A DNA stretch of 64,000 nt, from assembly GCA_964489875.1 (NCBI GenBank), contig CAZAZW010000001.1, positions 310,337-374,336 on the forward strand, read 5' to 3'. Both the position numbers and the translations under genes were made by a program. Each line of letters opens with the position of its first letter. Within the stretch, counting starts at the first letter, position 1. The DNA is from an uncultured Gammaproteobacteria bacterium (GTDB taxonomy: Bacteria; Patescibacteriota; Microgenomatia; Daviesbacterales; UBA10151). Positions 16,577 to 63,903 of this stretch are shown here, in pieces. The notes beneath the pieces were generated by a model. That model had not been told where the DNA came from, did no database searches, and saw only the letters and a list, made by a program, of their open reading frames with translations.

Positions 16577-18039
16577 ACAAATACTACATTACAACAGCTA
16601 TACCATATGTTAATGCTGCACCGCATATAGGCTTCGCACTTGAACTCGTACAAGCCGATACAATTGCACGCTACCATCGTGACATCTTAAAAGAGGATGT
16701 CTTCTTCTCGTCTGGTTCAGACGAGAATAGTCTGAAAAATGTCCAGGCAGCAGAAAGTGAAAGTATTCCTACTAGAAAATTAGTTGATAAATATGCAAAA
16801 AGGTTTGCGGACCTAAAATCGGTATTAAATATTTCTTATGACGTCTTCAACAGAACTGCCACAGAAGAGCACTTTAAAGGTGCACAGAAATTATGGTTAG
16901 CTTGTAAAAAAGAGGACATTTATAAACAAACTTATACTGGCCTTTACTGTGTTGGTTGTGAAGAATTCTACATTGAAGACGAACTAATAGATGGTCACTG
17001 TCCCGAGCACCCAAACATCATACCGGAGAAAGTAAGTGAGGAGAATTATTTTTTCAAACTAACTAACTATCAAAAAGATTTAGAGAAATTCATAGAGGAA
17101 GATAAAGTCAAAATTGTTCCCCAGACTCGGAAAAATGAAATCTTTTCATTTATAAAACAAGGTCTCAAAGATTTTAGTATTTCCAGATCAGTTGCCCGGG
17201 CTAAAGATTGGGGGGTCCCAGTTCCCAACGACCCCTCCCAAATCCAATATGTTTGGTTCGATGCTTTAGTAACTTACCTTACGGCATTAGGTTATGGAAC
17301 AAATGGGGAACTTTTCCATAAGTATTGGACGGAAGATTCAGAAAAAGTCCACATTATTGGAAAAGGGATTATCAGATTTCATGCAGTATATTGGATAGCA
17401 ATGTTATTGTCAGCAAATTTGCCTTTACCGAATTTAGAATTTGTTCACGGTTATATAACGGTAAACGGCCAAAAGATTAGCAAGTCTCTTGGTAATACAG
17501 TTGATCCATTTGAGTTGGTTCAAAAATACGGCACAGACCCTGTCCGCTATTATCTTCTAAAAGAAATCCCTGCTTATGGTGATGGCGATTTCTCTGAAGA
17601 AAAATTTAAAGAACTTTACAATGCTGACCTAGCAAATGGTTTGGGTAATCTAGTGGCCAGAGTAGCCAAACTTTGCGAAAAAATTAACCTTAACGTTTCA
17701 TTTACATCAGGGAATTTTTATACAATCGTGGAAAAGTCACTCGCTGATTTTCGCTTTGATATAGCTCTACATTATATATGGACACAAATTGCTCAAGTCG
17801 ATTCTATTATTAATCAAGAAAAACCATGGACATTAAAGGAAGACGATCTCCGTGTAGTTTTAGAGGCGGACTTGGTAAAGAAAATCCAACAAATTGCCTT
17901 TAATCTGCAGCCATTTTTACCTGAAACAGCCGAAAAAATCTTAAAACAATTTTCCGGACAAATTAAATCCGCCCCACCGCTTTTTCCCCGCCTGCCATCG
18001 CCTAGCGGCGAAGCAATTGGCGGGCAGGCCAGGCTATGA
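16573..18039 (+). CDS. metG: Methionine--tRNA ligase (short form)
   Basis: YITTAIPYVNAAPHIGFA (HIGH), CxxC knuckle CVGCEEF...CPEH, KISKSLGN (KMSKS). Confidence 0.9.
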   Translation: MNKYYITTAIPYVNAAPHIGFALELVQADTIARYHRDILKEDVFFSSGSDENSLKNVQAAESESIPTRKLVDKYAKRFADLKSVLNISYDVFNRTATEEHFKGAQKLWLACKKEDIYKQTYTGLYCVGCEEFYIEDELIDGHCPEHPNIIPEKVSEENYFFKLTNYQKDLEKFIEEDKVKIVPQTRKNEIFSFIKQGLKDFSISRSVARAKDWGVPVPNDPSQIQYVWFDALVTYLTALGYGTNGELFHKYWTEDSEKVHIIGKGIIRFHAVYWIAMLLSANLPLPNLEFVHGYITVNGQKISKSLGNTVDPFELVQKYGTDPVRYYLLKEIPAYGDGDFSEEKFKELYNADLANGLGNLVARVAKLCEKINLNVSFTSGNFYTIVEKSLADFRFDIALHYIWTQIAQVDSIINQEKPWTLKEDDLRVVLEADLVKKIQQIAFNLQPFLPETAEKILKQFSGQIKSAPPLFPRLPSPSGEAIGGQARL

Positions 18040-18926
18040 AATTAGTTGATACTCATACCCATCTTTATTGGGATTCATATACGGCAGATTTTGATGAAAT
18101 AATCCAAAGGGCTGTTGATACCGACATCTCCACCATTATTAACATCGGCGTGGATATTGAAACAAGCCAGAAAGCATTAGATCAAGCCAAAAACACCACA
18201 TGGCCTACAGGTTTATTAGTTTACTCCACCATTGGCATACATCCCCATGAATCATCTAAATATGATTCTAATGAATTTCTGCAACAAGCTATGGAAAAAC
18301 TAGAACAAATCTATCTTTCCGATAAGCGAAGCTTGAAAGTCAACCTTTCAAGCAAACTTTCAAGGTTTCCTTATAAAACAAGGGTGGTCGGGATTGGTGA
18401 ATGCGGTCTGGATTTCTTTTCCACCTCCGAGGTGGGCTTTGACTCCTCGGAGGTATTTAGTCAGAAAAAACTCTTTAAAGCCCACATTGATTTGGCCAAA
18501 AAACTAAACCTTCCTTTAATCGTCCATTGCCGGGATGACAGGTCAAAAGATCCAAACAATTCTGAAGCCTGGGGTGAAGTAATAAAAATGGTCGGCAACC
18601 AACCTGCCATCTTACATTGTTATAGTGGACTTTCCCAAACTACCAACTACCTACTACGAACTGCAAACTTATTTGTTTCTTTTGCAGCCAATCTCACTTA
18701 CCCCAAAAATGAATATTTAAGAGAAGCTGTTAAGACCCTACCTCTTAACAGAATTCTTTTAGAAACAGACTCCCCTTTTTTGGCTCCCCAAAGTAAAAGA
18801 GGCCAAAGGAATGAACCATCTGCAGTCAAAGAAATCGCCGAGTTAATTGCAAACTTAAAAGGAGTATCTCTGGAAGAAGTCGCCGACCAAACCACAGCAA
18901 ACGCTAATAAAATATTTGCTTTCTGA
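18036..18926 (+). CDS. tatD: TatD-family metal-dependent hydrolase
   Basis: VDTHTHL, IGECGLDF, IVHCRD, LLETDSPFL. Confidence 0.85.
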   Translation: MKLVDTHTHLYWDSYTADFDEIIQRAVDTDISTIINIGVDIETSQKALDQAKNTTWPTGLLVYSTIGIHPHESSKYDSNEFLQQAMEKLEQIYLSDKRSLKVNLSSKLSRFPYKTRVVGIGECGLDFFSTSEVGFDSSEVFSQKKLFKAHIDLAKKLNLPLIVHCRDDRSKDPNNSEAWGEVIKMVGNQPAILHCYSGLSQTTNYLLRTANLFVSFAANLTYPKNEYLREAVKTLPLNRILLETDSPFLAPQSKRGQRNEPSAVKEIAELIANLKGVSLEEVADQTTANANKIFAF

Positions 18927-29815: not shown

Positions 29816-30775
29816 CTATTGTAGCACAACAAGTAAATTTCGTTGATATTCAGATAAGATTTTACTGCGGCAATCTTCGGGATGAAAATACAACGCCCCG
29901 TCTTCTATTCTCTCCAAACCTTTTGGTTTTTGCATAATTTTCAGCTGCAACTTTTTAGCCAAAATCTCTAACAACAAAGGGAGGCTGCCTCCGAACGCAG
30001 CGAGCCTTAGACGATCCGCCGACAGGCGGAGAGCGTATCCGAGGCGATTAGCCACAGGACGCTTGCGTTGGTGAGCAAGTGAGCGGGGCTGCCGACCGAA
30101 ATCACCAGAACCCAGACGAGCTTCCCCGACACCCACCCAGTTTGGTAAAAATTTAAAAGCCCAGGAGTTTCTCTCCAGGTATTTTGCATAAATCCCATCC
30201 CTTTGCCACAGCACCTTCATTTGTAGCACCTCGTGTGCAACAAAGATATCTTTGTTCTGTTGCTCCAATCGGTCTTCTTCGAGTAAAATATTAAGACACA
30301 GCTTCCCGGCAATTTTTTTACCCTTTTCCCCAACTTTTCTTCTTTGTCCTATTAAAGACAGTAACACCAAAGCCAACAGCCGGGAAATCCATAAGCGATT
30401 TTTAGCAGTAATAATAAAAAGATCAATATCATCTTTTTTAGAAGCATTACATAAAGCCAGTCCCCCTGATATCCCCACCAATTTTATCCAGGGAATTATT
30501 TTTAAAATCTGACAGAGTATTTTAGCTTTTCGGAAATACTTAGCGGACTGACCTTCCCGGCGTTTTCTTTTTATTATTAAACCATTCTTCCCCGGCAAAA
30601 AGTAATATCCTCCTTGTATTTTTAGCTTTGAATTTTCAACTAATCGACCTATGGCCGACTCCACCTGCCTTAGGTTAGCTTTCCTGCCTATCAACCACTT
30701 ATGAATATCATTCATCTTTAAGGGATAATCAAAAATATCAGCATAAATTAAAGTTTTTAATATAGCTTTTTCCAT
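29816..30775 (-). CDS. Hypothetical protein with Pol-beta-type nucleotidyltransferase-like motif
   Basis: VGISGGLALCNASKKDDIDLFIIT (GS...DxD pattern). Carries the 110-nt GC-rich insert. Confidence 0.4.
   Translation of the reverse strand: MEKAILKTLIYADIFDYPLKMNDIHKWLIGRKANLRQVESAIGRLVENSKLKIQGGYYFLPGKNGLIIKRKRREGQSAKYFRKAKILCQILKIIPWIKLVGISGGLALCNASKKDDIDLFIITAKNRLWISRLLALVLLSLIGQRRKVGEKGKKIAGKLCLNILLEEDRLEQQNKDIFVAHEVLQMKVLWQRDGIYAKYLERNSWAFKFLPNWVGVGEARLGSGDFGRQPRSLAHQRKRPVANRLGYALRLSADRLRLAAFGGSLPLLLEILAKKLQLKIMQKPKGLERIEDGALYFHPEDCRSKILSEYQRNLLVVLQ
29993..30102. repeat. GC-rich ~110-nt element, copy A, in-frame inside a minus-strand ORF
   Basis: Shares gaacgcagcga.c..tagacga, gcgtatccgag, a tccgcc...ggcgga hairpin, and a 48-nt 3' core (30055-30102) that is 45/48 identical to 43137-43184. 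Confidence 0.8.
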
Positions 30776-37328: not shown

Positions 37329-38261
37329 ATGATTACAGTTACCGGATCTCTAGCTTTTGATCATATTATGGATTTTCCTGGCAAATTTTCCGATCATATT
37401 ATGCCGGATAAAATCCACCAGATAAACTTATCTTTTTTAGTTAATACTTTAAGTAAGCAAAAAGGCGGTACTGCCGGAAACATTGCCTATAATTTAGCTC
37501 TTCTAAAAACTCCTGTTTCCGTTGTAGGGATGGCTGGCCATGATTTTCCGGAATACGCCAAATTCCTGGAAAATACCGGTGTTGATATTTCAAAGATCCA
37601 AACAGCCGAAAATAATCTAACCTCTTCTGCTTTTATTATGACCGACAAAGCAGATAATCAGATTACAGCCTTTTACCCTGGCGCCATGAAAGATGCAACC
37701 CAACTTTCTCTGGATGGACTCACCACGGATTTTGTTGTTGTCTCTGCCAATAACCCGGAAGCCATGGTTAAATTTGCCAAACAGTGCCAAGAACTTAATA
37801 TCAAATACATGCTGGATCCCGGCATGCAGCTTCCCCGGCTGACAGATGAGGAGTTACGAAGCGGCATTAAAGGCGCAGAAATCCTAATTGGCAATGATTA
37901 TGAAATTTCTCTTCTGAAAGAAAAACTGATGCTGGACGACAAACAACTGCTGGAACAAGTAAAAATTCTAATTACCACCTTGGGTGAAAAAGGCTCAACT
38001 ATCCAAACCAAAAACCAGACGCTGCAAATTCCGGCTGCTAAACTAAACCAGGTACTTGACCCCACCGGTGCCGGTGATGCTTTTCGGGCCGGATTTTTGG
38101 CAGGATTTACCAAAGGGTTAAACCTTCAAGCTTGCGGACAAATAGGATCTGTAGCTGCTTGTTACGCGATAGAAAAATATGGTACAACTAATCACAAGTT
38201 TACGATTGAGGAATTTAAGGAAAGATACCACCAGAATTTTGGAAGGGAATTGAACTTATGA
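37329..38261 (+). CDS. PfkB-family carbohydrate/nucleoside kinase (adenosine-kinase-like)
   Basis: [42 protein letters not shown]. Start set at the internal ATG. Confidence 0.75.
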
Positions 38262-39544
38262 TCAAATATGACATCAAAGACAAAAACCTAGCAGCAAAAG
38301 GCAAACTTAAGATTGAATGGGCCGGATCCCAGATGAAAGTGCTGGAACTTATCAAGAAGCGCTTCTCAGAAGAGAAACCCCTCAAAGGTATCACTTTAGG
38401 AGCCTGCCTTCATGTTACAAGCGAAACTGCCAATTTAATGATTACACTTAAGGAAGGTGGAGCTGAATTAGCTTTGTGTGCCTCAAATCCCCTTTCCACC
38501 CAGGACGAAGTAGCCGCCTCTTTGGTAGAAGACTACCACATTCCTACTTTTGCCATAAAAGGTGAGGATAAAGATACCTATTATAAACACTTAAATACTG
38601 TCTTAGACTTTAATCCCCAAATTACCATGGATGACGGAGCAGATCTGGTCACGCTGCTTCACACCGAGCGAAAATCCCAACTCAAAGATGTCATTGGCTC
38701 ATCAGAAGAAACCACTACCGGAGTGATTAGACTTAGAGCAATGCTAAAAGATGGGACACTCAAGATTCCTGTCATGGCAGTCAATGATAGTAGCACCAAG
38801 CACATGTTTGATAACCGCTATGGCACAGGACAGTCCACCATTGATGGGATCATCAGGGCTACTAATGTACTGTTGGCTGGCAAAAAGTTTGTGGTAGTGG
38901 GTTACGGCTGGTGCGGCAGAGGCCTGGCCCAACGGGCCAGAGGTATGGGATCTTTAGTAATAATTACTGAAGTTGACCCCTTAAAAGCTTTGGAAGCAAC
39001 CATGGACGGATATGATGTAATGCCCATAAACGAGGCTATCGAAGTAGCTGACATCATCTGCACTGCCACCGGCAATAAAACCGTTCTCTCGGTGGAACAC
39101 TTCAAAAAAATGAAAGACGGCGCCATTGTGGCCAATACCGGACATTTCAACGTGGAATTTGATTATGAGGGCCTGCTTAAAATAGCCAAAAAGAAACGCC
39201 TGCTAAGGGATAATTTGGAGGAAATTACCCTGGAAGACGGCTCGCCTCGCTTCGCGGGCGAAGCGGGTAAAAAAGTCTTCGTACTGGGGGAGGGCCGGTT
39301 AATTAATTTGAGCGCAGCCGAAGGCCATCCACCGGATGTAATGGATATGTCCTTTGCCAACCAAGCCCTAGCAGCAGAATTCTTGGTAAAAAATAAAGGT
39401 AAACTTAAAACAGATGTTTATAGAGTACCAAAAGAATTAGATGACATGATCGCCGAGCTAAAACTTAAATCTTTGGGTATTTCCATTGATACTCTGACGG
39501 AAGACCAGAAAAAATACCTCGCCTCCTGGCATGAGGGGACTTGA
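38258..39544 (+). CDS. ahcY: Adenosylhomocysteinase
   Basis: [57 protein letters not shown]. Confidence 0.9.
39239..39267. repeat. GC-rich mini-element (reverse orientation) GGCTCGCCTC-N10-CGAAGCGGG inside ahcY
   Basis: Contains a perfect 8-bp hairpin cgcttcgc-gg-gcgaagcg. Translated as [10 protein letters not shown]. Confidence 0.75.
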
Positions 39545-40928: not shown

Positions 40929-41489
40929 ATGCGCTTTTTTATAGCCCTAGAAATACCGAAGGAGAATTTACCGGAGTTTCAATCTATTCAGGTTAAATTG
41001 CACACATTAATTCCTCAGGCAAAATTAACTGCTCTAGATAAGATTCATCTAACTTTAGCCTTTGTAGGAGAACAACCAGAGGAGCTAAAGGAAAATTTAA
41101 TTCAGGTCATTGCGGGTTCAACAAATGGGGTACTTACTTTCCAGGTTACCCCGGCTTATATTGATGGTTTTCCCCAAATCCACCACCCGGAGGTTTTATG
41201 GGTAGGTGTCAAGGGAGATATAGATAAAATTCACATCATCAGGGAAAGAATTAAAGATGGATTGAAAAGTTTACATTTACCGGTAGATGAACGACGTTTT
41301 ATCCCGCATATTTCCGTAGCCAAATTCAGCAAACCTTTTAACATTGGCAATGGCTTGGAAGATAGTTTTGAAAAAATCATGTCCGCCCCTTTTGCTCCAA
41401 TTCAAATCTGCTCCATCAAACTATTTGAATCTGCTCCTGAAAACGGCATCCACTACCACAACACCCTGGCAGAAATTAAGCTTTTTTAG
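40929..41489 (+). CDS. thpR: RNA 2',3'-cyclic phosphodiesterase (2H phosphoesterase, LigT/ThpR)
   Basis: Two HxT/S motifs: HLTLAF and HISVAKF. Confidence 0.8.
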   Translation: MRFFIALEIPKENLPEFQSIQVKLHTLIPQAKLTALDKIHLTLAFVGEQPEELKENLIQVIAGSTNGVLTFQVTPAYIDGFPQIHHPEVLWVGVKGDIDKIHIIRERIKDGLKSLHLPVDERRFIPHISVAKFSKPFNIGNGLEDSFEKIMSAPFAPIQICSIKLFESAPENGIHYHNTLAEIKLF

Positions 41490-42320
41490 ATTGATCCAAA
41501 AAATATATATCTTTCTTAAAACTTTCATCGGAAAACTGAAACTCGCCTTTACCATCAATGACTGCCTGGTAATTTTTGCAATCATTACATAAATCATCCC
41601 CCTTAATACACACCCAATTGTCCTCCCCGATTGCCTGTTTAATCTGTAAGGCTTTATCCTTAAGCCACTCCAGTTTTTCTTCCAACTCATCTAAAACTGC
41701 CTCTTTTGGGACAGACTCCCGATCCAAATACCAATAACTTATTTTCGAGACTCTTTTTTGTAGATTGGATTCCGCCAGAATGGCATAAGTGTGCAGTTGG
41801 GTAGAATCCTCCTCCTCTTTTGAGCCGGTCTTAAAATCCAGGATATGCAGGCTGCCATCCGGTAGCTCTCCCACAAAATCCACTCTACCATTTAAAACAA
41901 TCTTTTCATCTAATCTAAACCTAAGAAAATCAAACAAAGGAACATGAGGCCCCAGGTGTTTAACATTATTTAAAAAATTATCCAGCATTTGCAAACCCCG
42001 TTTGCCAAATTCAGCCTCTTCTTCGCGCGAGCTAAAACCACCCCTTTTGCCTCGGTACTTTAACCAGTGGTTTTTATATTGCTTAATCACACTGTCTTGA
42101 TCAGCCATTCTGCCGGTTTGCAAATACCACTTGATAGCGTCATGGACCAGGGAACCTAAAGTCATCGGAGCTGAAGCTATTTGTAGACGATTCCCGGTTT
42201 TCGGGTCTCTGTACCTATTTTTAAGGTAATAGGCACGGGGACATCTTAAAAAGTCTTTCAGTCCGGTATATGAAATCCACAAAGCATCCTTAATATATTC
42301 ATGTTTTTGCCTGGGGATCA
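41476..42320 (-). CDS. PD-(D/E)XK nuclease, Cas4/RecB-like with Cys cluster
   Basis: ISYTGLKDFLRCPRAYYL, GRVDFVGELPDGSLHILDFKTG, C-terminal CIKGDDLCNDC. Start trimmed to GTG at about 42320 to avoid a 100-nt overlap with tsaD (uncertain). Confidence 0.6.
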
Positions 42321-42359
42321 CAATCTTAATTCTTACTACAAATTTGCTACAATAACAAC

Positions 42360-43490
42360 ATGGTAATCTTGGGAATTGAAACCAGTTGTGATGAAACGGC
42401 AGCTGCAGTAGTGCAAAAGTCCGGAGAAAGGGTAAAAATTTTATCCAATGTTGTGGCATCCTCAGCTGCGCTGCAAGCTAAATACGGCGGTGTAATCCCC
42501 GAACAAGCTGCCAGAGAACAAATAAAATCTATTATTCCTGTTATCCAAGAGGCACTTTCTGAAGCATTTCCCCAACTACCAACTACTAACTACCAACTAC
42601 ATATTCCTATTGATGCAATAGTAATTACCTACGGTCCCGGACTTATCGGCTCACTTTTAGTAGGCGTCGAAACAGCCAAAACCCTGGCCATGGTCTGGAA
42701 CAAACCACTCATTCCGGTAAACCATTTACTGGGCCATTTCTATGCGAATTGGATTAATGATCAGCCTACCCTCCCCTGCCTTGGCTTGCTTATCTCCGGC
42801 GGGCATACTGATTTAGTTTTATTCAAAAGCCATGATAAATACGACTACCTAGGTGGAACCCGGGATGATGCAGCCGGGGAATGTTTTGACAAATGCGCCA
42901 GGCTTTTAAATTTACCTTATCCTGGTGGGCCGGAAATTTCTAAATTAGCCACACGTGGAGATGCTTCAAGGTTCAATCTCCCCAGACCTATGATTGATTC
43001 CAAAGACTTTGATTTTTCATTTTCCGGCTTAAAAACTGCGGTTTCTAACCTTTTAAAAAATGAGGGGGTGCTGTCCCTGAACGCAGCGAACTCTAGACGA
43101 GCGAAGCGAGCGTATCCGAGTCCGCCAGGGCGGACGCAGGACGCTTGCGTTAGTGAGCAAGTGAGCGGGATTGCCGACCGAAATATTCTCCAGGATTTAT
43201 CCGCTTCCATAGAACAAGCTATTGTTGATGTTTTAATTACCAAAACCCTCAAGGCCGCCCAGAAATATAAAGTCAAGCAAATAATGGTGGCTGGTGGAGT
43301 TGCTGCCAACCAAAAACTAAAAAGTGACTTAAGATTAAAAATTAATGATTTAGGATTAAAAATTAAATTGCACATCCCTACGCCTGAACTCTGTACTGAC
43401 AATGCTGCCATGATTGCTACGGCTGCCTTTTTTAACTACCACCCCACTGATCCCTTAACCCTCCAAGCCAACCCCAATTTATCCCTGTGA
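42360..43490 (+). CDS. tsaD: tRNA N6-adenosine threonylcarbamoyltransferase
   Basis: ILGIETSCDETAAAVV, NHLLGH, GGHT, FSFSGLKTAV, VAGGVAAN, CTDNAAMIA. Confidence 0.9.
   Translation: MVILGIETSCDETAAAVVQKSGERVKILSNVVASSAALQAKYGGVIPEQAAREQIKSIIPVIQEALSEAFPQLPTTNYQLHIPIDAIVITYGPGLIGSLLVGVETAKTLAMVWNKPLIPVNHLLGHFYANWINDQPTLPCLGLLISGGHTDLVLFKSHDKYDYLGGTRDDAAGECFDKCARLLNLPYPGGPEISKLATRGDASRFNLPRPMIDSKDFDFSFSGLKTAVSNLLKNEGVLSLNAANSRRAKRAYPSPPGRTQDACVSEQVSGIADRNILQDLSASIEQAIVDVLITKTLKAAQKYKVKQIMVAGGVAANQKLKSDLRLKINDLGLKIKLHIPTPELCTDNAAMIATAAFFNYHPTDPLTLQANPNLSL
42572..42599. repeat. Heptamer tandem array CCAACTA x4 inside tsaD
   Basis: ccaacta ccaacta ctaacta ccaacta, translated as QLPTTNYQLH. Confidence 0.85.
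43079..43184. repeat. GC-rich ~106-nt element, copy B, in-frame inside tsaD
   Basis: Same modules as 29993-30102 in the same DNA orientation, but here the host gene is on the plus strand. Translated as NAANSRRAKRAYPSPPGRTQDACVSEQVSGIADRN. Confidence 0.8.
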
Positions 43491-58460: not shown

Positions 58461-58611
58461 TACTTGTTAAAAGCAGCGAAGTCACAAGTGAACAAAAAAT
58501 GTTGAGGATTTCGTGCAATCATTCTTAATAATTCGAGGTTTCTGGCAGACACAAAATACTCACAAGTGAGCAAGTCCCAACCGTGCGAGCGATTTTTTGT
58601 ACTGTGACGAG

Positions 58612-59067
58612 CTAGCTTTTCTGCACCGGCTTAATCACAATATGCCTATCTCTTCCCTCTCCCACACTCTCAGACTCCAATCCCTTCATCTCGGAAATAG
58701 TCATATGAACCACCCGTCGCTGCCACGAAGACTGCGGCTCAAGCTCCAAAGGTTTCCCGGACTCTAAAACCTGTTCACCCCAACTCTGTGCACTTTTAAT
58801 GAGCTCCTCTTCTTTCTGTTTTCTCCAACCCTCTACATCTATAACCACTCTTTTAAACCCCGTCTCTCCTACTTTTCTGGCTACCATTTGGTTAACTAAA
58901 AGTTGCAGGGCATCCAGTGACTCCCCCCTTGCTCCAATTAGTCTGCCGGCATCTTTAGTTTCAATAGACACCAGGAAACTTTCTTCTGTTTCCTCCATGT
59001 CGTAACTTCCTTCTAGAAGAAGCATTCCCAGTAAATTGTCTAATACTTCACCAAGTTGATTTTCCAT
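58612..59067 (-). CDS. jag: Jag/KhpB RNA-binding protein (KH + R3H)
   Basis: LIGARGESLDALQLLVNQMV (KH), and QRRVVHMTISE in an R3H context. Confidence 0.8.
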   Translation of the reverse strand: MENQLGEVLDNLLGMLLLEGSYDMEETEESFLVSIETKDAGRLIGARGESLDALQLLVNQMVARKVGETGFKRVVIDVEGWRKQKEEELIKSAQSWGEQVLESGKPLELEPQSSWQRRVVHMTISEMKGLESESVGEGRDRHIVIKPVQKS

Positions 59068-59158
59068 ATAGTTAGTGACTAGTCGCTAAGACTTGCTCCT
59101 TGCAAGTCGCAAGGTCTTGCGAACTTGTGAGCAAGTTCTTAGAATCTAAAGTCTTGAT

Positions 59159-60001
59159 TTATTTCACTTGACTCTTGACTCTAGTCACTAGACTCTCCAA
59201 TCCTCCCCAACCTGACACCCGATGCTGCTGAACTATTCCCAGTATTGTATACGTATTCCAATAAATTGCAAGCCCGATGGGAAAAGTAAAGGCAAAATAA
59301 CCAATCATGATCGGCATTAAATACACCATCTGAGATTGAACCGCGCCCATGCTTTCTTCAATTCCCTCTTTCTCCTTTGCTTCCTTGGGAGAGTCAGTTG
59401 GGTAGTGCTTAACCGGTTTCGGCAAAGTCATCTTCGATTGAATAAAAGTTAACACTGCTGTCAGAAGGGGGATTAACAGTAAACCAACTCCCAAACTGGC
59501 AAACTCAGAGGGTTTAGCGCCTAAATTAAGTCCGAAAAAATTCGGATCCAGGGTAGAAGGAAGCTTAAGTTGCGGAAAATATAACAAAGAATTTATTTTA
59601 TCAATATGACCGCCTGCCCCGGGTAAAATATTAATAATTGATTGATATAAAGCTATAAATACCGGGATCTGAATTAAAGCCGGCAAACAACCGCCGGCCG
59701 GATTGACACCGTGCTCCTTATAAAGTGCCATCTGAGCGCTGGCAAAAGCTTGCTTATCTCCTTTGTGCTTCTGCTTTAGCGCATCCAGGTGCGGCTTTAA
59801 ATCAGCCATCTTTTTAGTAGCCTTAATCTGAGAAGCCATAAATGGCCAAACCAAAATCCTGATTAAAACAGTCAGAGCCAGTATGGAAAAACCCAGCGCC
59901 CCCGGGATATGCAAACTGGAAAGTCCCTGGAAAATTAATACCAGCAGGTTAATAACCGGACCAAAAAATATTAAGTTAAAAAGATCAATAATAGCACCCA
60001 T
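59159..60001 (-). CDS. yidC: Membrane protein insertase YidC
   Basis: Conserved YidC/Oxa1 core (PFMASQIKATKKMADLKP, GGCLPALIQIPVFIALY, GLAIYW). Start set at the ATG that shares an A with the yidD stop (TAATG). Confidence 0.9.
   Translation of the reverse strand: MGAIIDLFNLIFFGPVINLLVLIFQGLSSLHIPGALGFSILALTVLIRILVWPFMASQIKATKKMADLKPHLDALKQKHKGDKQAFASAQMALYKEHGVNPAGGCLPALIQIPVFIALYQSIINILPGAGGHIDKINSLLYFPQLKLPSTLDPNFFGLNLGAKPSEFASLGVGLLLIPLLTAVLTFIQSKMTLPKPVKHYPTDSPKEAKEKEGIEESMGAVQSQMVYLMPIMIGYFAFTFPIGLAIYWNTYTILGIVQQHRVSGWGGLESLVTRVKSQVK
59167..59194. repeat. Imperfect heptamer tandem array at the yidC 3' end
   Basis: cttgact cttgact ctagtca ctagact, translated on the minus strand as SLVTRVKSQV. 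Confidence 0.7.
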
Positions 60002-60201
60002 TATCTGCAGCTCCAAATTCTTTTGATTCCCAACCAACCTCCCCTGAATACCCCGAATTCCCCGATTTTCTGCTTGGTATATTCAGAACAGCTGACTTCA
60101 TACTTGCATGCTCCACCCGGGGCAAAAATAGCTAAAACTCCTCTGTCAAAGGATAAATAATTTTGATAAAACTCGATTATATTAACTAATAATCTTCTCA
60201 T
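60001..60201 (-). CDS. yidD: Membrane protein insertion efficiency factor YidD
   Basis: FYQNYLS...CKYEVSCSEYTKQKI...G..LGIKRIWSC. Confidence 0.8.
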   Translation of the reverse strand: MRRLLVNIIEFYQNYLSFDRGVLAIFAPGGACKYEVSCSEYTKQKIGEFGVFRGGWLGIKRIWSCR

Positions 60202-60520
60202 TTCTTAAAACTGCCTCCACATCCAAAAGCAGATCACCTGATTTTACATTAAGTACCCCGGCTTTGGGAAGAGCTAATATATTGATCCGCTGCGGAAGAC
60301 TAGCGTAAAGCGCTTCAAAAACAGCCGAGGTCAATCTTCTGGCTCTGTTTCGCTCCACAGCTTTCTTAAAAGATTTTCCGGAAATAGCTATACCTATCCT
60401 CGGTAACTGATTATCGCCCAGTTTAACAAAAATCTTTAAATACTTTGTCTCTAGTCTTTTTCCAGCAGCCGCCCACTTGAAATCTTTTTTTAAACTTAAA
60501 CGTTGAGACTTAGGGAGCAT
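60182..60520 (-). CDS. rnpA: Ribonuclease P protein component
   Basis: LPKSQRLSLKKDFK...; sits between rpmH and yidD as is canonical. Confidence 0.8.
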   Translation of the reverse strand: MLPKSQRLSLKKDFKWAAAGKRLETKYLKIFVKLGDNQLPRIGIAISGKSFKKAVERNRARRLTSAVFEALYASLPQRINILALPKAGVLNVKSGDLLLDVEAVLRNEKIIS

Positions 60521-60657
60521 TAGACTGTAAGACGAGCTCTACCGGTTGCCCTTCTTCTTTTTAAAACTTTTCGGCCACCGGCAGTGGCTTTCCTGGCCAT
60601 AAAGCCATGCTTTTTAGCTCTTTTTAATTTTTTTGGTTGATATGTCCTCTTTGGCAT
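60520..60657 (-). CDS. rpmH: Ribosomal protein L34
   Basis: Hand translation: [45 protein letters not shown]. Absent from the ORF track because it is under 60 aa. Its stop shares 1 nt with the rnpA start. Confidence 0.9.
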
Positions 60658-60834
60658 TTGTTTATATTAGCAGAAAATTTCAGCCTTGTATAGCTATCTT
60701 CTAAATCTGCAATTGATCTACTTATTTATAGTTTCTCTATATTGTCAAGGTTGACAATCTGAACTAAATTGTGGATAACTGATTTTGACTTTGTGGATAA
60801 GTCAAAATCATAATTCTATTACTTGCCCCAATCT
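60658..60834. other. oriC part 1 / dnaA promoter region with DnaA boxes
   Basis: AT-rich stretch at 60660-60740. Palindrome attgtcaa-gg-ttgacaat (60741-60758). Perfect TGTGGATAA boxes at 60770-60778 and 60792-60800, and a 1-mismatch box TATGGATAA at 60834-60842. Confidence 0.7.
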
Positions 60835-61839
60835 ATGGATAACCTACGCCTTTGGCATAAATTTTTATCAACCATTAAACCCCAGGTTGGAAATGACAAC
60901 TTTAAGGCATACTTTTTAAAAACCCTGTTAAAATCCTCCAATAACGATCTGATCGTCTTAAGCGCTCCCTCAGCATTCATAAAAGAGAATCTGGATCAAA
61001 AATTCAAGACCATTATCAAGCAAGCCTTTGCTAGTCTTTTAGGCAAAAAGGTGGAGGTTGAATTTATTGTCAAAGAGACCGAAAGGATGACAGAGGAAGT
61101 GGAGGAAGATTTTTTCCAGCCTATCCAGACCACACCCAGCGCTTTAAACCCCAAATATACCCTGGAAAACTTTGTGGTTGGACCCTCTAATAATGTAGCT
61201 TATGCTGCGGCCCAGGCAGTAGTGCAGAATCCGGGAACAAGTTATAATCCGCTATTTTTATACGGGGGGACCGGGGTAGGAAAAACTCACTTAATGCTGG
61301 GTATCGGTAACGCCCTGTTAGCAAAAAAGGGGCATCTTAAAGTTATCTACTGCTCTTCGGAGAAATTCATGAATGATTATGTCACCGCCATCCAGGAACA
61401 TAAAATGGGGGATCTGAGAAAAAGATACCGTATGGCTGATATACTACTGATTGACGATATCCAATTTTTCTCCGGTAGGGAAGGAACGCAGGAAGAGTTT
61501 TTCCACACTTTTAATGAGTTGCAATCCAAAAACTCGCAAATGATCCTAACTTCAGACCGACCTCCGCAAGAAATTGCCAAACTGGAGGATCGACTTAAAA
61601 GTCGTTTTACCGGAGGACTGATGATAGACATCCAATCACCTGACTTTGACACTCGGGTGGCAATTTTACGGGCTAAGTGTGCTGAACAAGGAAATATGCT
61701 ACCTGAAGACGCTCTTAAATTAATAGCTTCTTCCCTAGATTCCAATATCAGAGAACTGGAGGGTAAGCTAATCCAAATCTTACAATCCTTAAAAGCCCAA
61801 GCAAGTTTTATCTGTAATCTGCAGCTTCTTCGACGTTAG
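60835..61839 (+). CDS. dnaA: Chromosomal replication initiator DnaA, domains I-III (reading frame ends prematurely)
   Basis: GGTGVGKTHLM (Walker A), LLIDDIQF (Walker B), LTSDRPP, RLKSRF, IRELEG (sensor II). Stop at 61837-61839 before domain IV. Confidence 0.85.
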   Translation: MDNLRLWHKFLSTIKPQVGNDNFKAYFLKTLLKSSNNDLIVLSAPSAFIKENLDQKFKTIIKQAFASLLGKKVEVEFIVKETERMTEEVEEDFFQPIQTTPSALNPKYTLENFVVGPSNNVAYAAAQAVVQNPGTSYNPLFLYGGTGVGKTHLMLGIGNALLAKKGHLKVIYCSSEKFMNDYVTAIQEHKMGDLRKRYRMADILLIDDIQFFSGREGTQEEFFHTFNELQSKNSQMILTSDRPPQEIAKLEDRLKSRFTGGLMIDIQSPDFDTRVAILRAKCAEQGNMLPEDALKLIASSLDSNIRELEGKLIQILQSLKAQASFICNLQLLRR

Positions 61840-62074
61840 CTTAAAGGATTTAACCGGACCAAAAAGGCAAAAAGAGCTGGTGCTGCCGCGCCACATTGCG
61901 ATGTATATACTCTCAGAAGAACTAAGGCTAACGGTAGAAAAAATCGGACAAGTACTGGGGGGCAGAGATCACACCACAGTCATGCACGGTAGGGATAAAA
62001 TGAAACAACTGATTAATAAGGACCGGGAAGTACAACGGATGTTTATCGAAGTAAAACAGAAAATAATGAGTTAG
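61772..62074 (+). pseudogene. dnaA: DnaA domain IV in the +1 frame (frame-shifted continuation of dnaA)
   Basis: The frame is open from 61772: ...KQVLSVICSFFDVSLKDLTGPKRQKELVLPRHIAMYILSEELRLTVEKIGQVLGGRDHTTVMHGRDKM. The ORF track shows only the GTG-initiated 64 aa from 61880. Confidence 0.8.
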
Positions 62075-62249
62075 ACTTTATCCACCAGATAAAGTTATTT
62101 ATCCACAATTTATCCACCATTTTTAAACAAGCATTTAACACGAAAATTTACCAAAAAGTGAACCGGAAATCTTTAGTTACCAACAAATCCACAGACTATA
62201 TTATTACTACTATTGTTTAATAAATTGTGTAGTATAATCGAACATACTT
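62075..62249. other. oriC part 2: DnaA-box cluster between dnaA and the next gene
   Basis: TTATCCACC at 62078-62086, perfect TTATCCACA at 62099-62107, TTATCCACC at 62110-62118, AAATCCACA at 62185-62193, TGTGGACAA at 62249-62257. AT-rich stretch at 62119-62160. Confidence 0.7.
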
Positions 62250-62708
62250 GTGGACAAGTATAACTTACTTTTTATTGGAATAATTATTCTTCTTTTAATA
62301 ATCACTTATTTAATTGGCAGGTTACATGGAAGAAAACCAACTGATATTCCGACTGATTTAATTGATCTTTATAAAGGGGTACAGGATTTACCTGCAAAAG
62401 TATTACAAGCTATACAAGGATCAATCAATCCACAAAAGGGTAAAATGGCAGAACTGCTGACTTATGCCGAACTTCGCTATGATTATGACCGGATTATTCC
62501 ACTTGGCTGGCCGATTGATTTTATCGGAATCAAAAATAATGAGCGGATTGACTTTATTGAAGTAAAATCCGGAGTAGCTCACCTCTTGACAGATGAAGAA
62601 AAACACATTAAAAACCTTATTGCGGCAGGACGGGTTAATTTTAGATTGATTAAGGTGAGCGAAGATGAGGTCCAAAGGTTTGTATCTGCCAGAAAGGAAT
62701 CGGACTGA
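62250..62708 (+). CDS. Membrane-anchored PD-(D/E)xK endonuclease-like protein (archaeal Hjc-related type, tentative)
   Basis: GTG start. N-terminal TM helix LLFIGIIILLLIITYLIG. KGKMAELLTYAEL...PIDFIGIKNNERIDFIEVKSG (D...E-x-K). Confidence 0.45.
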   Translation: MDKYNLLFIGIIILLLIITYLIGRLHGRKPTDIPTDLIDLYKGVQDLPAKVLQAIQGSINPQKGKMAELLTYAELRYDYDRIIPLGWPIDFIGIKNNERIDFIEVKSGVAHLLTDEEKHIKNLIAAGRVNFRLIKVSEDEVQRFVSARKESD

Positions 62709-62759
62709 GTGAAGAGAAATTATAATCTCTTATTAATTTCTCTAAACGAAGGAGATCGC

Positions 62760-62792
62760 TTGCAAAAATTGCGGATAAGCAATTTTTGACAA
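62760..62792. promoter_or_regulatory. DnaA-box-like site embedded in a palindrome upstream of dnaN
   Basis: ttgcaaaaattgc-GGATAA-gcaatttttgacaa. TGCGGATAA (62770-62778) has 1 mismatch to TGTGGATAA. Confidence 0.45.
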
Positions 62793-62802
62793 GGGAAAAG
62801 CT

Positions 62803-63903
62803 ATGAAGTTTACAGTTTTACAGCAAGATTTACTGCCGCCGCTTCAGGCAGTAGCCAGATCTGTTGGCATTAGGTCGACTTTGCCGGTTTTAGACAATGT
62901 ATTATTATCTCTTGAAGATAAGAAATTAAAAATCGCTGCCACTAATTTAGAGATCGGAGTGGTTAAGTATGTCAATGTAGAGATAGAGGCGCCTGGTGAA
63001 ATTACTGTTCCTGCCAAAACTTTAGTTGAGCTGATTTCCGGTTTAGGGCAAAACAAAGTGAGTTTGACTGCAGAAAGCGAGGTTTTAACTGTGCAGTCAG
63101 GTAAATTTAAGGCCAGTGTTAACGGTATAGCTGCAGCCGAGTTTCCGGCTATTCCTATGTCCGAAGATAAAGGAATAAGTTTTCCTAAAGAAGCTTTTTT
63201 AACTTCCTCACAAATCCTTTTTGCCTCAGCCTCTGATGAAGGCAGGCCGGTTTTAACCGGAATCCTGACTGAGGTTTCCAACGGCAAGTTAGATTTTGTG
63301 GCTACTGATGGATTTAGACTGGCCCACCGGCAGGTAGATTTACCAAAAGACACGGCACAGTTTAAAAGTTTAATCCCCAGAAGGACTTTTGAAGAGCTGC
63401 ATCGGCTGATTTCGGAGGAAGAAATTGAAGAAGTGAGTATTGCCACCAGTGAAAACCAAAACCAAGTGGTATTTAATCTGGGGAGCACTCTGATTTCGTC
63501 CAGGCTAATTGAGGGACAATTTCCGGCCTGGGGAAAGATTATACCGGAGAAAATTGTGGCGCGGGCCTTAGTGGAAAAAGATGAACTGTTAAAGGGAGTT
63601 AAACTAGCAGCTATTTTTGCCAAAAATGAGGCTAATGTGGTAGTTTTAACCACCAAAAAGGGATTGTTGAAGCTGGAATCTCATGCTAAAGAGTTAGGCA
63701 GTCAGGAAAACGAGGTTGAAGGAGAAATAGATGGAGAAGAACTTAAAATTGCTTTTAATACCAAATTTTTACTGGATGCACTATCAAATGCTCCTTCTTC
63801 GCAGATAATGATGGAGTTTTCCGGAGCCTTATCTGCTGCTTTGATAAAACCAGTCGGGGTGGTGGGTTTAGAGTATATTGTAATGCCAGTGAGACTTAGT
63901 TAA
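62803..63903 (+). CDS. dnaN: DNA polymerase III beta sliding clamp
   Basis: MKFTVLQQDLL...ATNLEIG...ATDGFRLA...; 366 aa, immediately downstream of the origin region. Confidence 0.9.
   Translation: MKFTVLQQDLLPPLQAVARSVGIRSTLPVLDNVLLSLEDKKLKIAATNLEIGVVKYVNVEIEAPGEITVPAKTLVELISGLGQNKVSLTAESEVLTVQSGKFKASVNGIAAAEFPAIPMSEDKGISFPKEAFLTSSQILFASASDEGRPVLTGILTEVSNGKLDFVATDGFRLAHRQVDLPKDTAQFKSLIPRRTFEELHRLISEEEIEEVSIATSENQNQVVFNLGSTLISSRLIEGQFPAWGKIIPEKIVARALVEKDELLKGVKLAAIFAKNEANVVVLTTKKGLLKLESHAKELGSQENEVEGEIDGEELKIAFNTKFLLDALSNAPSSQIMMEFSGALSAALIKPVGVVGLEYIVMPVRLS

What the first reader, a model, noticed from the sequence alone, without database searches (positions are those of the whole stretch)
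43079..43184. A ~110-nt GC-rich element is inserted in-frame in two unrelated genes on opposite coding strands
Segments 29993-30102 (inside minus-strand ORF 29816-30775) and 43079-43184 (inside plus-strand tsaD) share several modules. These are a 5' module (gaacgcagcga.c..tagacga), a gcgtatccgag module, and a tccgcc(N4-5)ggcgga hairpin whose position is swapped between the copies. They also share a 48-nt 3' core, 30055-30102 versus 43137-43184, which I count as 45/48 identical.

Both copies have the same DNA orientation, so one is translated forward and the other as its reverse complement. Neither introduces a stop codon. In tsaD the element adds about 35 residues (NAANSRRAKRAYPSPPGRTQDACVSEQVSGIADRN) between the conserved FSFSGLKTAV and the following helix.

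The behaviour is what is known for Rickettsia palindromic elements (RPEs), which insert in-frame into ORFs. To my knowledge no such element family has been described for CPR-type genomes. The 10-mer gtgagcaagt from the core also occurs at 58566-58575 and 59127-59136, in the spacers flanking jag.
Basis: partly seen in the sequence, partly recalled or inferred. Interest (0 to 1): 0.7.

Follow-up and report, generated by a model that had tools for sequence, protein, structure and literature searches.

The report
In-frame palindromic insertion element in CPR genes
A roughly 120-base GC-rich palindromic DNA element sits in-frame inside surface loops of at least four unrelated housekeeping genes of Daviesbacteria-like (CPR) bacteria and is read in three different frames, much as Rickettsia palindromic elements are, and I found no published description of this for the group.

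Summary
The window holds two same-orientation copies of a roughly 120-nt, 62% GC element: 29980-30102 inside a minus-strand ORF, and 43066-43184 inside tsaD. The 48-nt cores are 45/48 identical (BLAST E 2e-15).

Related copies occur at the same tsaD site in two other Daviesbacteria lineages, at the same site in an orthologue of the 319-aa ORF, and in topA and radA of another organism. That makes four host genes, both orientations and three reading frames. Many equally close homologues lack it. Against solved structures it is a clean loop insertion. In an AlphaFold model of TsaD the insert has pLDDT below 50.

The element is a nested palindrome: outer inverted repeats, two GC hairpins and a core hairpin, with compensatory changes at 7 pairs. 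Each window copy has lost one hairpin.

Element nucleotides are far more conserved than synonymous sites of the host genes. An invariant 13-mer is translated in two frames in orthologous tsaD genes through compensating -2 and -1 indels. So the frame is kept, but the peptide is not what is conserved.

Best reading: a low-copy, RPE-like, MITE-like insertion element. The mobilising enzyme is unknown. The 10-mers near jag are chance matches.

The parts
43066..43184 (+). Copy B of the element (119 nt), inside tsaD and translated forwards. It adds TsaD residues of about 236-275 (GVLSLNAANSRRAKRAYPSPPGRTQDACVSEQVSGIADRN).
   Evidence: cmsearch 149 bits, E 1e-37. Alignments with other copies. HMMER alignment to solved TsaD 3ZET breaks at query 236/273, which corresponds to chain residues 226/228. 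pLDDT is below 50 for residues 239-272.
29980..30102 (+). Copy A of the element (123 nt), in the same DNA orientation as copy B. It lies inside minus-strand ORF 29816..30775 and is translated as its reverse complement (FGRQPRSLAHQRKRPVANRLGYALRLSADRLRLAAFGGSL).
   Evidence: cmsearch 129 bits, E 2e-32. Only frame -0 is open. The insert is absent from family members such as P0127 and P0125 and shared by orthologue P0123.
42360..43490 (+). Host gene tsaD (376 aa).
   Evidence: Pfam PF00814, E 6e-86. Matches to solved TsaD structures.
29816..30775 (-). Host gene: a conserved uncharacterised 319-aa ORF. It has no Pfam or NCBIfam model but 5335 relatives, typically 280-300 aa.
43137..43184 (+). 48-nt 3' core of copy B. 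It contains hairpin H3: GCTTGC 43143-43148, loop 43149-43156, GCAAGT 43157-43162.
   Evidence: 45/48 identical to copy A. Nearly invariant in all 9 distinct copies. The hairpin appears in the minimum-free-energy fold.
30055..30102 (+). 48-nt 3' core of copy A.
43120..43135 (+). Hairpin H2 of copy B (GTCCGCC-AG-GGCGGAC).
   Evidence: Helix 5 has compensatory changes at 4 of its 7 pairs.
30015..30030 (+). Hairpin H1 of copy A (TCCGCC-GACA-GGCGGA).
   Evidence: Helix 3 has compensatory changes at 2 pairs.
43099..43111 (+). Degenerate H1 slot of copy B (CGAGCGAAGCGAG). It is 2 nt shorter than the intact H1 in the L001 tsaD copy.
30044..30054 (+). Degenerate H2 slot of copy A (GCGATTAGCCA). It carries an in-frame 6-nt loss relative to the orthologous L007 copy.
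43108..43120 (+). Spacer GAGCGTATCCGAG, shared unchanged by both window copies, L001 and L007 (the L009/L010 tsaD copies and the topA/radA copies each differ at one base). It is read as (R)AYPS in the window tsaD and as ERIR(G) in the L001 tsaD. In copy A the same 13-mer is at 30031-30043.
43070..43077 (+). Outer inverted-repeat arm of copy B (GCTGTCCC). It pairs with GGGATTGC(C) at 43167-43175. In copy A the equivalent arms are GGCTGCCTCC at 29982-29991 and GGGGCTGCC at 30085-30093.
   Evidence: Helix 1: 93% of cells paired, with one C-G to U-A compensatory pair between subfamilies.

Best explanation
This is a low-copy family of non-autonomous, MITE-like palindromic insertion elements of about 120-130 bp in Daviesbacteria-related CPR bacteria, and it behaves like Rickettsia palindromic elements.

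Architecture. The element is a nested palindrome:
- an outer imperfect inverted repeat (GGCTGCCCC ... GGGGCTGCC);
- two internal GC hairpins, H1 and H2, of the form xxCGCC-NNN-GGCGxx;
- a spacer that barely varies, GAGCGTATCCGAG;
- a 48-nt core containing a third hairpin.

How it got there and why it persists. It has entered protein-coding genes at the DNA level in either orientation. It persists only where the insertion keeps the frame open and lands in a permissive surface loop. It is then translated as a disordered extra loop of about 35-50 residues.

Later evolution. The copies change by small indels in the hairpin modules. These indels are tolerated only in frame-preserving combinations.

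Status of each step:
- Shown: the same DNA in four genes, three frames and two orientations; absence from many homologues; loop location; palindromic architecture with compensatory changes; maintenance of the reading frame; nucleotide rather than peptide conservation.
- Inferred: mobilisation in trans by an unidentified enzyme (or a past burst of it), and spread of filled alleles between related species by homologous recombination.
For: 1. Same DNA in unrelated genes.
- tsaD in the window, L001/L006 and L008-L010; the 319-aa ORF in the window and L007; topA in L002/L005; radA in L015. Covariance-model scores are 129-159 bits.
- The topA and radA copies, recovered from separate assemblies (an NCBI MAG and a JGI contig) and apparently the same population because the chimeric contigs L003/L004 join the two genes, differ at 4 of about 130 nt, and their flanks are unrelated.

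2. Three frames and both orientations.
- Each copy is open in the frame in which it is read.

3. It is an insertion, not ancestral sequence.
- The TsaD loop is 10-60 aa in 120 relatives, and only 3 carry this element.
- The three element-bearing TsaDs are not monophyletic in a neighbour-joining tree.
- The 319-aa ORF family mostly lacks it.
- Alignments to solved structures break cleanly at 226/228 of 3ZET TsaD, 114/117 of 5LKM RadA and 233/244 of 6OZW TopA.

4. It forms a surface or disordered loop.
- TsaD residues 239-272 have pLDDT below 50, between confident helices 222-234 and 274-302.

5. Palindromic architecture.
- 91% of pair cells form standard pairs, against 38-44% with slid partners.
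- 7 pairs change on both sides, against 0-2 in the slid controls.
- H1 and H2 stems differ between copies but stay paired.

6. It is translated.
- A -2 indel in H1 and a -1 indel in H2 compensate each other between the window and L001 tsaD genes.
- A 6-nt in-frame loss separates copy A from the L007 copy.

7. Conservation is at the nucleotide level.
- Third-codon-position identity is 0.66-0.88 in the element against 0.45-0.53 in the flanks.
- Four-fold degenerate sites are 69-92% identical in the element against 37-50% in the flanks.
- Conservation is similar at all three codon positions.

8. Foreign composition: 62% GC in a 41% GC genome.
Against: - Copy number is low: 2 copies in 64 kb, none further in about 170 kb of related loci, one exact core per species-representative genome, and 4 metagenome contigs.
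- I found no target-site duplication, no clean empty/filled pair, and no transposase sharing the ends.
- Copies cluster by host gene rather than by genome (tsaD subfamily against the 319-ORF/topA/radA subfamily). No recent transposition can therefore be shown in the window genome.
- Folding energies of single copies are not better than those of shuffles (z -1.4 to +0.2).
- The covariation counts come from an alignment fitted to a structure that was derived from these same sequences.
- Conservation above the neutral rate is not expected of a decaying selfish insert and needs an extra assumption, either lateral allele spread or selection.
Confidence: 0.7

Rival explanations
1. The element is primarily a functional nucleic-acid module kept by purifying selection, and its coding context is incidental. 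Candidates are a protein-binding or recombination site in DNA, or a structured RNA or small-RNA gene.
For: - Nucleotide identity in the element is far above that at synonymous sites of the same genes, and is equal across codon positions.
- The 48-nt core is almost invariant across four host genes and at least five genomes.
- A 13-mer that is unchanged in both window copies, L001 and L007, and differs at one base in the other copies, is read in two different frames in tsaD orthologues.
- Stems are maintained by compensatory changes.
Against: - No Rfam family matches at gathering or permissive thresholds.
- Fold z-scores are not significant.
- Pairs are almost all Watson-Crick, and the few G-U pairs show no relation to the transcribed strand.
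- Orientation relative to host transcription differs between hosts.
- Both window copies have lost one hairpin.
- Third-position identity is also raised in the 20 codons next to the element. That fits recombination tracts at least as well as selection.
- Quasi-palindrome template switching can perfect stems without any selection (established knowledge).
Confidence: 0.2
2. The segment is not translated. It is removed or skipped, either as a mini-intron or by programmed translational bypassing of the kind described for GC-rich 'byp' inserts in Magnusiomyces mitochondria.
For: It is a GC-rich palindromic insert in an AT-rich genome, which resembles mitochondrial GC clusters and byps (own knowledge). 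The predicted peptide is disordered.
Against: - All nine distinct copies are in-frame and free of stops in the frame used.
- Frameshifting indels occur only in compensating combinations (-2 with -1; -6). That is expected only if ribosomes read through.
- It is too short for a group I or II intron, and no ribozyme family matches.
Confidence: 0.03
3. The segment is ancestral or convergent loop sequence of each protein, not an insertion.
For: Orthologues of tsaD (P0001, P0003) and of the 319-aa ORF (P0123) carry it at the same site.
Against: - The same nucleotides occur in four unrelated genes in three frames.
- It is absent from most close homologues and from solved structures.
- Its composition is foreign to the genome.
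Confidence: 0.02
4. The repeat is an assembly or binning artefact of metagenome-assembled genomes.
For: L003 and L004 are reciprocal radA/topA chimeras joined inside the element. So the repeat does mislead assemblers.
Against: In the window both copies are flanked on both sides by the correct halves of their host genes. The same insert at the same site was recovered independently in NCBI, JGI, ENA and Logan assemblies.
Confidence: 0.02

Closest known systems
Rickettsia palindromic elements (RPE-1 to RPE-10)
   Same: Both are repeats of about 100-150 bp with palindromic potential. Both insert in-frame into unrelated housekeeping genes and are translated as extra peptide segments at positions compatible with the protein fold (RPE facts from review PMC10969869, and own knowledge). 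Here the element is 119-130 nt, lies in tsaD, topA, radA and a conserved ORF, and sits in loops.
   Different: - A different phylum (CPR/Daviesbacteria); sequence relationship to RPEs was not tested.
- Far lower copy number: 1-2 per genome detected, against 44 copies reported in R. conorii.
- Read in three frames and both orientations, rather than encoding one conserved peptide per family.
- Nucleotides are more conserved than host synonymous sites.
Bacterial MITEs that overlap ORFs (C. burnetii QMITE1, intragenic ERIC, Correia/NEMIS)
   Same: Short and non-autonomous, with inverted-repeat ends and internal secondary structure. They can fuse in-frame with host ORFs (PMC5896051; PMC10969869).
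   Different: QMITE1 is 300-400 bp, has 2-3 nt direct repeats, occurs about 50 times per genome and carries promoters. Here I found no target-site duplication, no promoter evidence and no partner IS. The terminal inverted repeat is only about 9 bp with one mismatch.
GC clusters and 'byp' elements of yeast mitochondrial genomes
   Same: GC-rich palindromic mobile inserts in an AT-rich genome, some of them inside protein-coding genes (own knowledge).
   Different: These are mitochondrial and 30-60 bp long. Byps are bypassed by the ribosome. Here the frame is actively maintained, so the element is translated.
REP/BIME elements with RAYT transposases, and IS200/IS605-derived palindrome-associated elements
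   Same: GC-rich short hairpins of the H1/H2 type, no obvious target-site duplication, and possibly strand-specific orientation (both window copies share one orientation on one replichore).
   Different: REPs are 20-40 nt, extragenic, high-copy, and tagged by GTAG or CGTC (PMC3733652 abstract). No such tag is conserved here, the copies are intragenic, and no Y1 transposase was seen in the sequence examined.

Membership tests
Rickettsia palindromic elements (RPE) | Repeat of about 100-150 bp present in several unrelated genes | tested here: met
   119-130 nt; four host genes.
Rickettsia palindromic elements (RPE) | In-frame insertion that preserves the host ORF and is translated | tested here: met
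   All copies are open in the frame used. Compensating indels keep the frame. Translation itself is inferred, not observed.
Rickettsia palindromic elements (RPE) | Palindromic or hairpin-forming sequence | tested here: met
   29-pair nested structure, 91% of cells paired, 7 compensatory pairs. Single-sequence fold z-scores are not significant.
Rickettsia palindromic elements (RPE) | Insertion at surface positions compatible with the fold | tested here: met
   Clean gaps against 3ZET, 5LKM and 6OZW. pLDDT below 50 in the loop.
Rickettsia palindromic elements (RPE) | Sequence homology to an RPE consensus, and occurrence in Rickettsiales | not tested
   No RPE consensus was available in the tools. 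The hosts are Daviesbacteria/CPR. It is therefore filed as an analogue, not a member.
Rickettsia palindromic elements (RPE) | One conserved encoded peptide per family | tested here: not met
   It is read in three frames. Even the orthologous tsaD copies read the middle of the element in two different frames.
MITE (classical) | Terminal inverted repeats | tested here: inconclusive
   GGCTGCCCC / GGGGCTGCC is 8/9 complementary, with one covarying pair. It is short, and GGCTGCC is itself nearly palindromic.
MITE (classical) | Target-site duplication flanking the element | tested here: inconclusive
   No duplication is evident in the flanks of the tsaD, 319-ORF, topA and radA copies. No clean empty site was available.
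MITE (classical) | Many copies per genome and a cognate IS with the same ends | tested here: not met
   2 copies in 64 kb and none further in about 170 kb of loci; 2 genomes and 4 metagenome contigs with an exact core. No cognate IS was seen, and whole genomes could not be scanned.
REP/BIME (RAYT-associated) | 20-40 nt extragenic palindromes with a GTAG or CGTC head, in high copy number | tested here: not met
   The element is intragenic, 120 nt, composite, low-copy and has no conserved tetranucleotide head.
Known structured RNA families (Rfam 15) | Match to a curated covariance model | tested here: not met
   0 hits at gathering threshold across the window. Only noise on the elements (E of at least 0.7).
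Self-splicing intron or intein | Ribozyme core (over 200 nt) or intein splicing motifs | tested here: not met
   120 nt with no ribozyme match. The peptide is 35-50 aa, varies in frame between orthologues, and matches no domain.

The most novel reading that the evidence does not exclude
The element may not be a decaying selfish insert. It may be one of several families of palindromic modules that repeatedly colonise the same permissive loops of essential CPR genes, and that are then held at the nucleotide level or spread between species by homing-like allele conversion.

If so, a hairpin-based DNA process would be a general source of the unusual protein insertions seen in CPR. Embedding in essential genes would protect the element from deletion.

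Supporting hints:
- Conservation is far above the synonymous rate.
- Third-position identity is raised in the adjacent 20 codons.
- The distribution on the TsaD tree is patchy.
- Several unrelated insert families occupy the very same TsaD loop.
- A second 35-nt twin-hairpin element is identical in the window's tatD-like gene and in another species' tsaD loop.
Probability: 0.25. Interest if true: 0.8.

Novelty: new member of a known kind. Interest (0 to 1): 0.58.

Why it matters
- It extends RPE-type 'protein remodelling by mobile palindromes' from Rickettsia to the Candidate Phyla Radiation. In CPR, unexplained insertions in conserved proteins and rRNAs are a hallmark.
- It gives a concrete DNA-level source for extra loops in essential proteins (TsaD, TopA, RadA).
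- It warns annotators and assemblers. The repeat creates chimeric contigs (radA/topA fusions) and inflates protein lengths.
- Its above-neutral nucleotide conservation poses a testable question: selection on a DNA or RNA function, or lateral allele spread?
- The same TsaD loop holds several unrelated insert families, which makes it a convenient marker locus for studying this process across CPR.

Tried and rejected
- Rfam, at gathering threshold on the window and permissively on two copies: nothing.
- tRNA/tmRNA scan: none.
- Single-sequence folding against shuffles: not significant on either strand.
- The 10-mers near jag: chance level, with no model hit.
- Covariance-model search of the window and 15 loci: no degenerate extra copies.
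- Peptide searches of the 5.8-billion-protein set:
  - The concatenated six-frame query returned only 4 proteins and missed P0003, which carries an identical 41-mer.
  - A concatenate of three other TsaD-loop insert families returned nothing, not even the source proteins.
  - This tool is therefore not informative for short inserts, and its low counts are not evidence of rarity.
- Viral contigs, plasmids and phages: no match.
- Extending the source contig: P0121 is not on record, and the edge gene gave only a 2.5-kb contig.
- A possible deleted remnant in the P0007/L012 tsaD loop (GGTGCT...GCCGACCATTC): not recognised by the model, so left as speculation.
- DGR template/variable repeat reading: rejected, because the differences are not adenine-specific and the hosts are housekeeping genes.
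- A LexA, DnaA, dif or parS-like motif in the core: none recognised by eye.
- Open frames as an adaptation: rejected. At 62% GC about 2 of 6 frames of 120 nt are open by chance (my estimate), which is what the copies show.
Full report
**1. Observation**

- A MAFFT alignment of 146-nt stretches gives 83% column identity.
- The 48-nt cores (30055-30102 and 43137-43184) are 45/48 identical, with blastn E 1.9e-15.
- A 33-mer from the core matches only these two sites at up to 3 mismatches, and none of 100 dinucleotide shuffles gave a match.
- GC is 0.63 and 0.61 against 0.41 for the window. These are the two highest 80-nt GC peaks in 64 kb.
- Both copies lie in the same DNA orientation. Copy B is read forwards in tsaD (42360..43490; Pfam PF00814, E 6e-86). 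Copy A is read as its reverse complement in ORF 29816..30775.
- The 10-mers at 58566 and 59127 exist but are at chance level (E about 6). A covariance model finds nothing there, and 59121-59138 is an unrelated hairpin.

**2. Copies elsewhere**

Exact-pattern scans of the core gave the following:
- A Candidatus Daviesbacteria MAG (L001, the same as L006), with the element at the same tsaD site.
- A contig labelled 'Gammaproteobacteria' (L002, the same as L005), with the element in topA.
- Two metagenome contigs, L003 and L004.

L003 and L004 are reciprocal fusions: radA N-terminus, element, topA C-terminus, and topA N-terminus, element, radA C-terminus. An intact radA with the element exists (P0122/L015). 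I therefore read the fusions as misassemblies across the repeat. The crossover points differ between the two contigs.

The topA and radA copies come from separate assemblies (an NCBI MAG and a JGI contig). I treat them as one population because L003 and L004 join the two genes. They differ at 4 of about 130 nt, and their flanks are unrelated.

Further copies:
- P0001 (L008-L010) carries the element in tsaD.
- P0123 (L007) carries it in an orthologue of the 319-aa ORF, at the same site.
- Model R1 scores all of these at 129-159 bits and finds no others in about 170 kb of held sequence.
- There is no match in viral contigs, plasmids or phages.
- The relatives identify the lineage as Daviesbacteria (Microgenomates, CPR).

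**3. It is an insertion**

- Among 120 TsaD relatives the loop after FSFSGLKTAV is 10-60 residues long. Only the window, P0001 and P0003 carry this element.
- On masked columns the window TsaD is as close to, or closer to, sequences without the element (P0007 0.83, P0002 0.825) than to the other carriers (P0003 0.825, P0001 0.77). The three carriers are not monophyletic in a neighbour-joining tree, which is star-like and weakly resolved.
- The 319-aa ORF belongs to a family of 5335 relatives, typically 280-300 aa. Most align in two stretches that split at the insert. P0127 (70% identical) lacks it.
- Against solved structures the insert is a clean gap: between residues 226 and 228 of TsaD 3ZET, 114 and 117 of RadA 5LKM, and 233 and 244 of TopA 6OZW.
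- An AlphaFold2 model of the window TsaD has mean pLDDT 77. Residues 239-272 are below 50, between confident helices 222-234 and 274-302.

**4. Anatomy**

It also shows a nested palindrome:
- An outer arm GGCTGCCCC pairs with GGGGCTGCC.
- AACGC pairs with GCGTT.
- Two GC hairpins, H1 and H2, flank the spacer GAGCGTATCCGAG, which is unchanged in both window copies, L001 and L007 and differs at one base in the others.
- The 48-nt core contains GCTTGC-N8-GCAAGT.

Fuller copies (L001, L002, L007) have both H1 and H2. Copy A keeps H1, and its H2 carries a 6-nt in-frame loss relative to L007. Copy B keeps H2, and its H1 is 2 nt shorter and degenerate.

On the model-fitted alignment:
- 91% of pair cells form standard pairs, against 38-44% with slid partners.
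- 7 pairs change on both sides, against 0-2 in the slid controls. Four are in H2, two in H1 and one in the outer stem.

Caveats apply. The structure was derived from these sequences and the alignment was fitted to it. Single-sequence fold energies are not better than shuffles. Pairs are almost all Watson-Crick, with no strand-specific G-U pattern. The palindrome is therefore as compatible with DNA as with RNA.

**5. Frames and translation**

- The tsaD copies are read in a forward frame.
- The 319-ORF copies use one reverse frame, and the topA and radA copies use another.
- Each copy is open in the frame used and mostly closed in the others. That is about what 62% GC gives by chance, so no special design is needed.
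- Between the window and L001 tsaD genes, a -2 indel in H1 and a -1 indel in H2 compensate. As a result the 13-mer GAGCGTATCCGAG, identical in these two copies, is read as (R)AYPS in one and ERIR(G) in the other.

The reading frame is therefore under selection, which means the element is translated. That argues against an intron or translational bypass. The peptide itself is not what is conserved.

**6. Conservation**

- In the tsaD comparisons of the window with L001 and with L009, third-position identity is 0.47-0.53 in the flanks and 0.75-0.78 in the element.
- In the same two tsaD comparisons, four-fold-site identity is 43-50% in the flanks and 70-79% in the element.
- The 319-aa ORF compared with L007 shows the same contrast. 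Third positions are 0.50 against 0.88, and four-fold sites are 9/23 against 24/26.
- Conservation is similar at all three codon positions.
- The 20 codons on either side of the element also show raised third-position identity (0.65-0.75 in five of six bins), against a background of 0.23-0.65, mostly 0.55 or below.
- Copies cluster by host gene, not by genome: tsaD type against 319-ORF/topA/radA type.

Two readings remain open:
- Filled alleles spread between related species by homologous recombination. This fits the flank gradient and the patchy tree.
- Nucleotide-level selection acts on a DNA or RNA function. This fits the nearly invariant core and the maintained stems, although quasi-palindrome template switching could also maintain stems.

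**7. Mechanism**

My best explanation (confidence 0.7) is a low-copy, non-autonomous, MITE-like palindromic element. It entered genes at the DNA level and survives only as frame-preserving insertions in permissive loops of essential genes, as RPEs do (review PMC10969869).

The enzyme is unknown. I found no target-site duplication, partner IS or clean empty site. The subterminal hairpins, the absence of a target-site duplication and the shared orientation of both window copies on one replichore would fit single-strand (Y1/HUH-type) transposition, but that is speculation. On the replichore: GC skew is negative up to about 62 kb, and dnaN lies at 62803.

**8. Comparison and novelty**

- Functionally this is an RPE analogue. 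It differs in phylum, copy number, use of several frames, and above-neutral conservation. Sequence relationship to RPEs was not tested.
- It is not a classical MITE: the terminal repeat is weak, and there is no target-site duplication and no high copy number.
- It is not a REP element, nor any Rfam family.
- Six literature searches of the held library found no description of such elements in CPR.
- I rate it a new member of a known kind, with interest 0.58.

**9. Wider context**

- The same TsaD loop carries several unrelated insert families in other lineages.
- One of these is a 35-nt twin hairpin, TCCACCTCCGAGGTGGGCTTTGACTCCTCGGAGGT. It is identical in the window's tatD-like gene (18421-18455) and in another species' tsaD loop (L014).
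- This suggests that in-frame palindromic insertion is a general process in this clade. I give that the status of the 'novel case', at 0.25 probability.

Noticed in passing
window 18421-18455 (inside the tatD-like ORF 18036..18926); L014 tsaD loop: A second in-frame palindromic mini-element. TCCACCTCCGAGGTGGGCTTTGACTCCTCGGAGGT (peptide STSEVGFDSSEV) is 35/35 nt identical to the tsaD loop of another species (P0089, GCA_943356485.1). That is the same tsaD loop that holds the 120-nt element in the window.
   Followed up: partly
TsaD relatives P0001-P0120 (loop after FSFSGLKTAV), plus three other variable sites in alignment A2: The loop ranges from 10 to 60 aa and carries several unrelated recurrent insert peptides. 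Examples are EKTAKSQARKN...GRASGFLSRDE, RGDGEKGIP...SRQDPE, PVILSAAKNLSRMRD...LIVQDDK and HTSEVKKSSYTSEVKC. The last is encoded by twin hairpins CACCTTCGAGGTG / CACCTCGAAGGTG in L011. It looks like an insertion hot spot.
   Followed up: partly
window 42572-42600 (inside tsaD): A heptanucleotide array, CCAACTA x4.1, encodes LPTTNYQL. The surrounding 42519-42618 is 97-100% identical to L011 (P0002), while the rest of tsaD is about 78% identical. This is another segment more conserved than its host gene.
   Followed up: partly
window 1496, 4465, 5278, 10474, 10510, 42572, 57017: Seven tandem arrays of period 7 with 3.3-4.9 copies. That is an unusual number of heptamer repeats for 64 kb, and most appear to lie inside ORFs.
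   Followed up: no
window 39248-39265 (inside ahcY 38258..39544): A perfect 8-bp GC hairpin, CGCTTCGC-GG-GCGAAGCG, encodes part of [10 protein letters not shown] in a local GC peak. It may be another small palindromic insertion.
   Followed up: no
window about 58600-63900: A probable replication origin region. jag, yidC and rnpA lie on the minus strand, followed by a possible dnaA (60823..61839) and dnaN (62803..63903, with DNA_pol3_beta domains). DnaA-box-like TTATCCACA repeats lie at 62075-62122, and GC skew changes sign after about 62 kb.
   Followed up: partly
L003 5604-7520 and L004 752-2476: Reciprocal radA/topA fusion ORFs joined inside the element in two JGI metagenome contigs, with different crossover points. 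Most likely misassembly across the repeat. If real, they would be ectopic recombination between copies.
   Followed up: partly
L002 (CAYRCR010000003.1): This contig is labelled 'uncultured Gammaproteobacteria' but carries the same element as the Daviesbacteria MAGs, and matches groundwater metagenome contigs almost exactly. The taxonomic label may be a binning or classification error.
   Followed up: no
window 41476..42459 (-) and 42360..43490 (+): The mechanically listed Cas4/PD-(D/E)XK-like ORF overlaps the first 100 nt of tsaD head-to-head. Its real start is probably further downstream.
   Followed up: no
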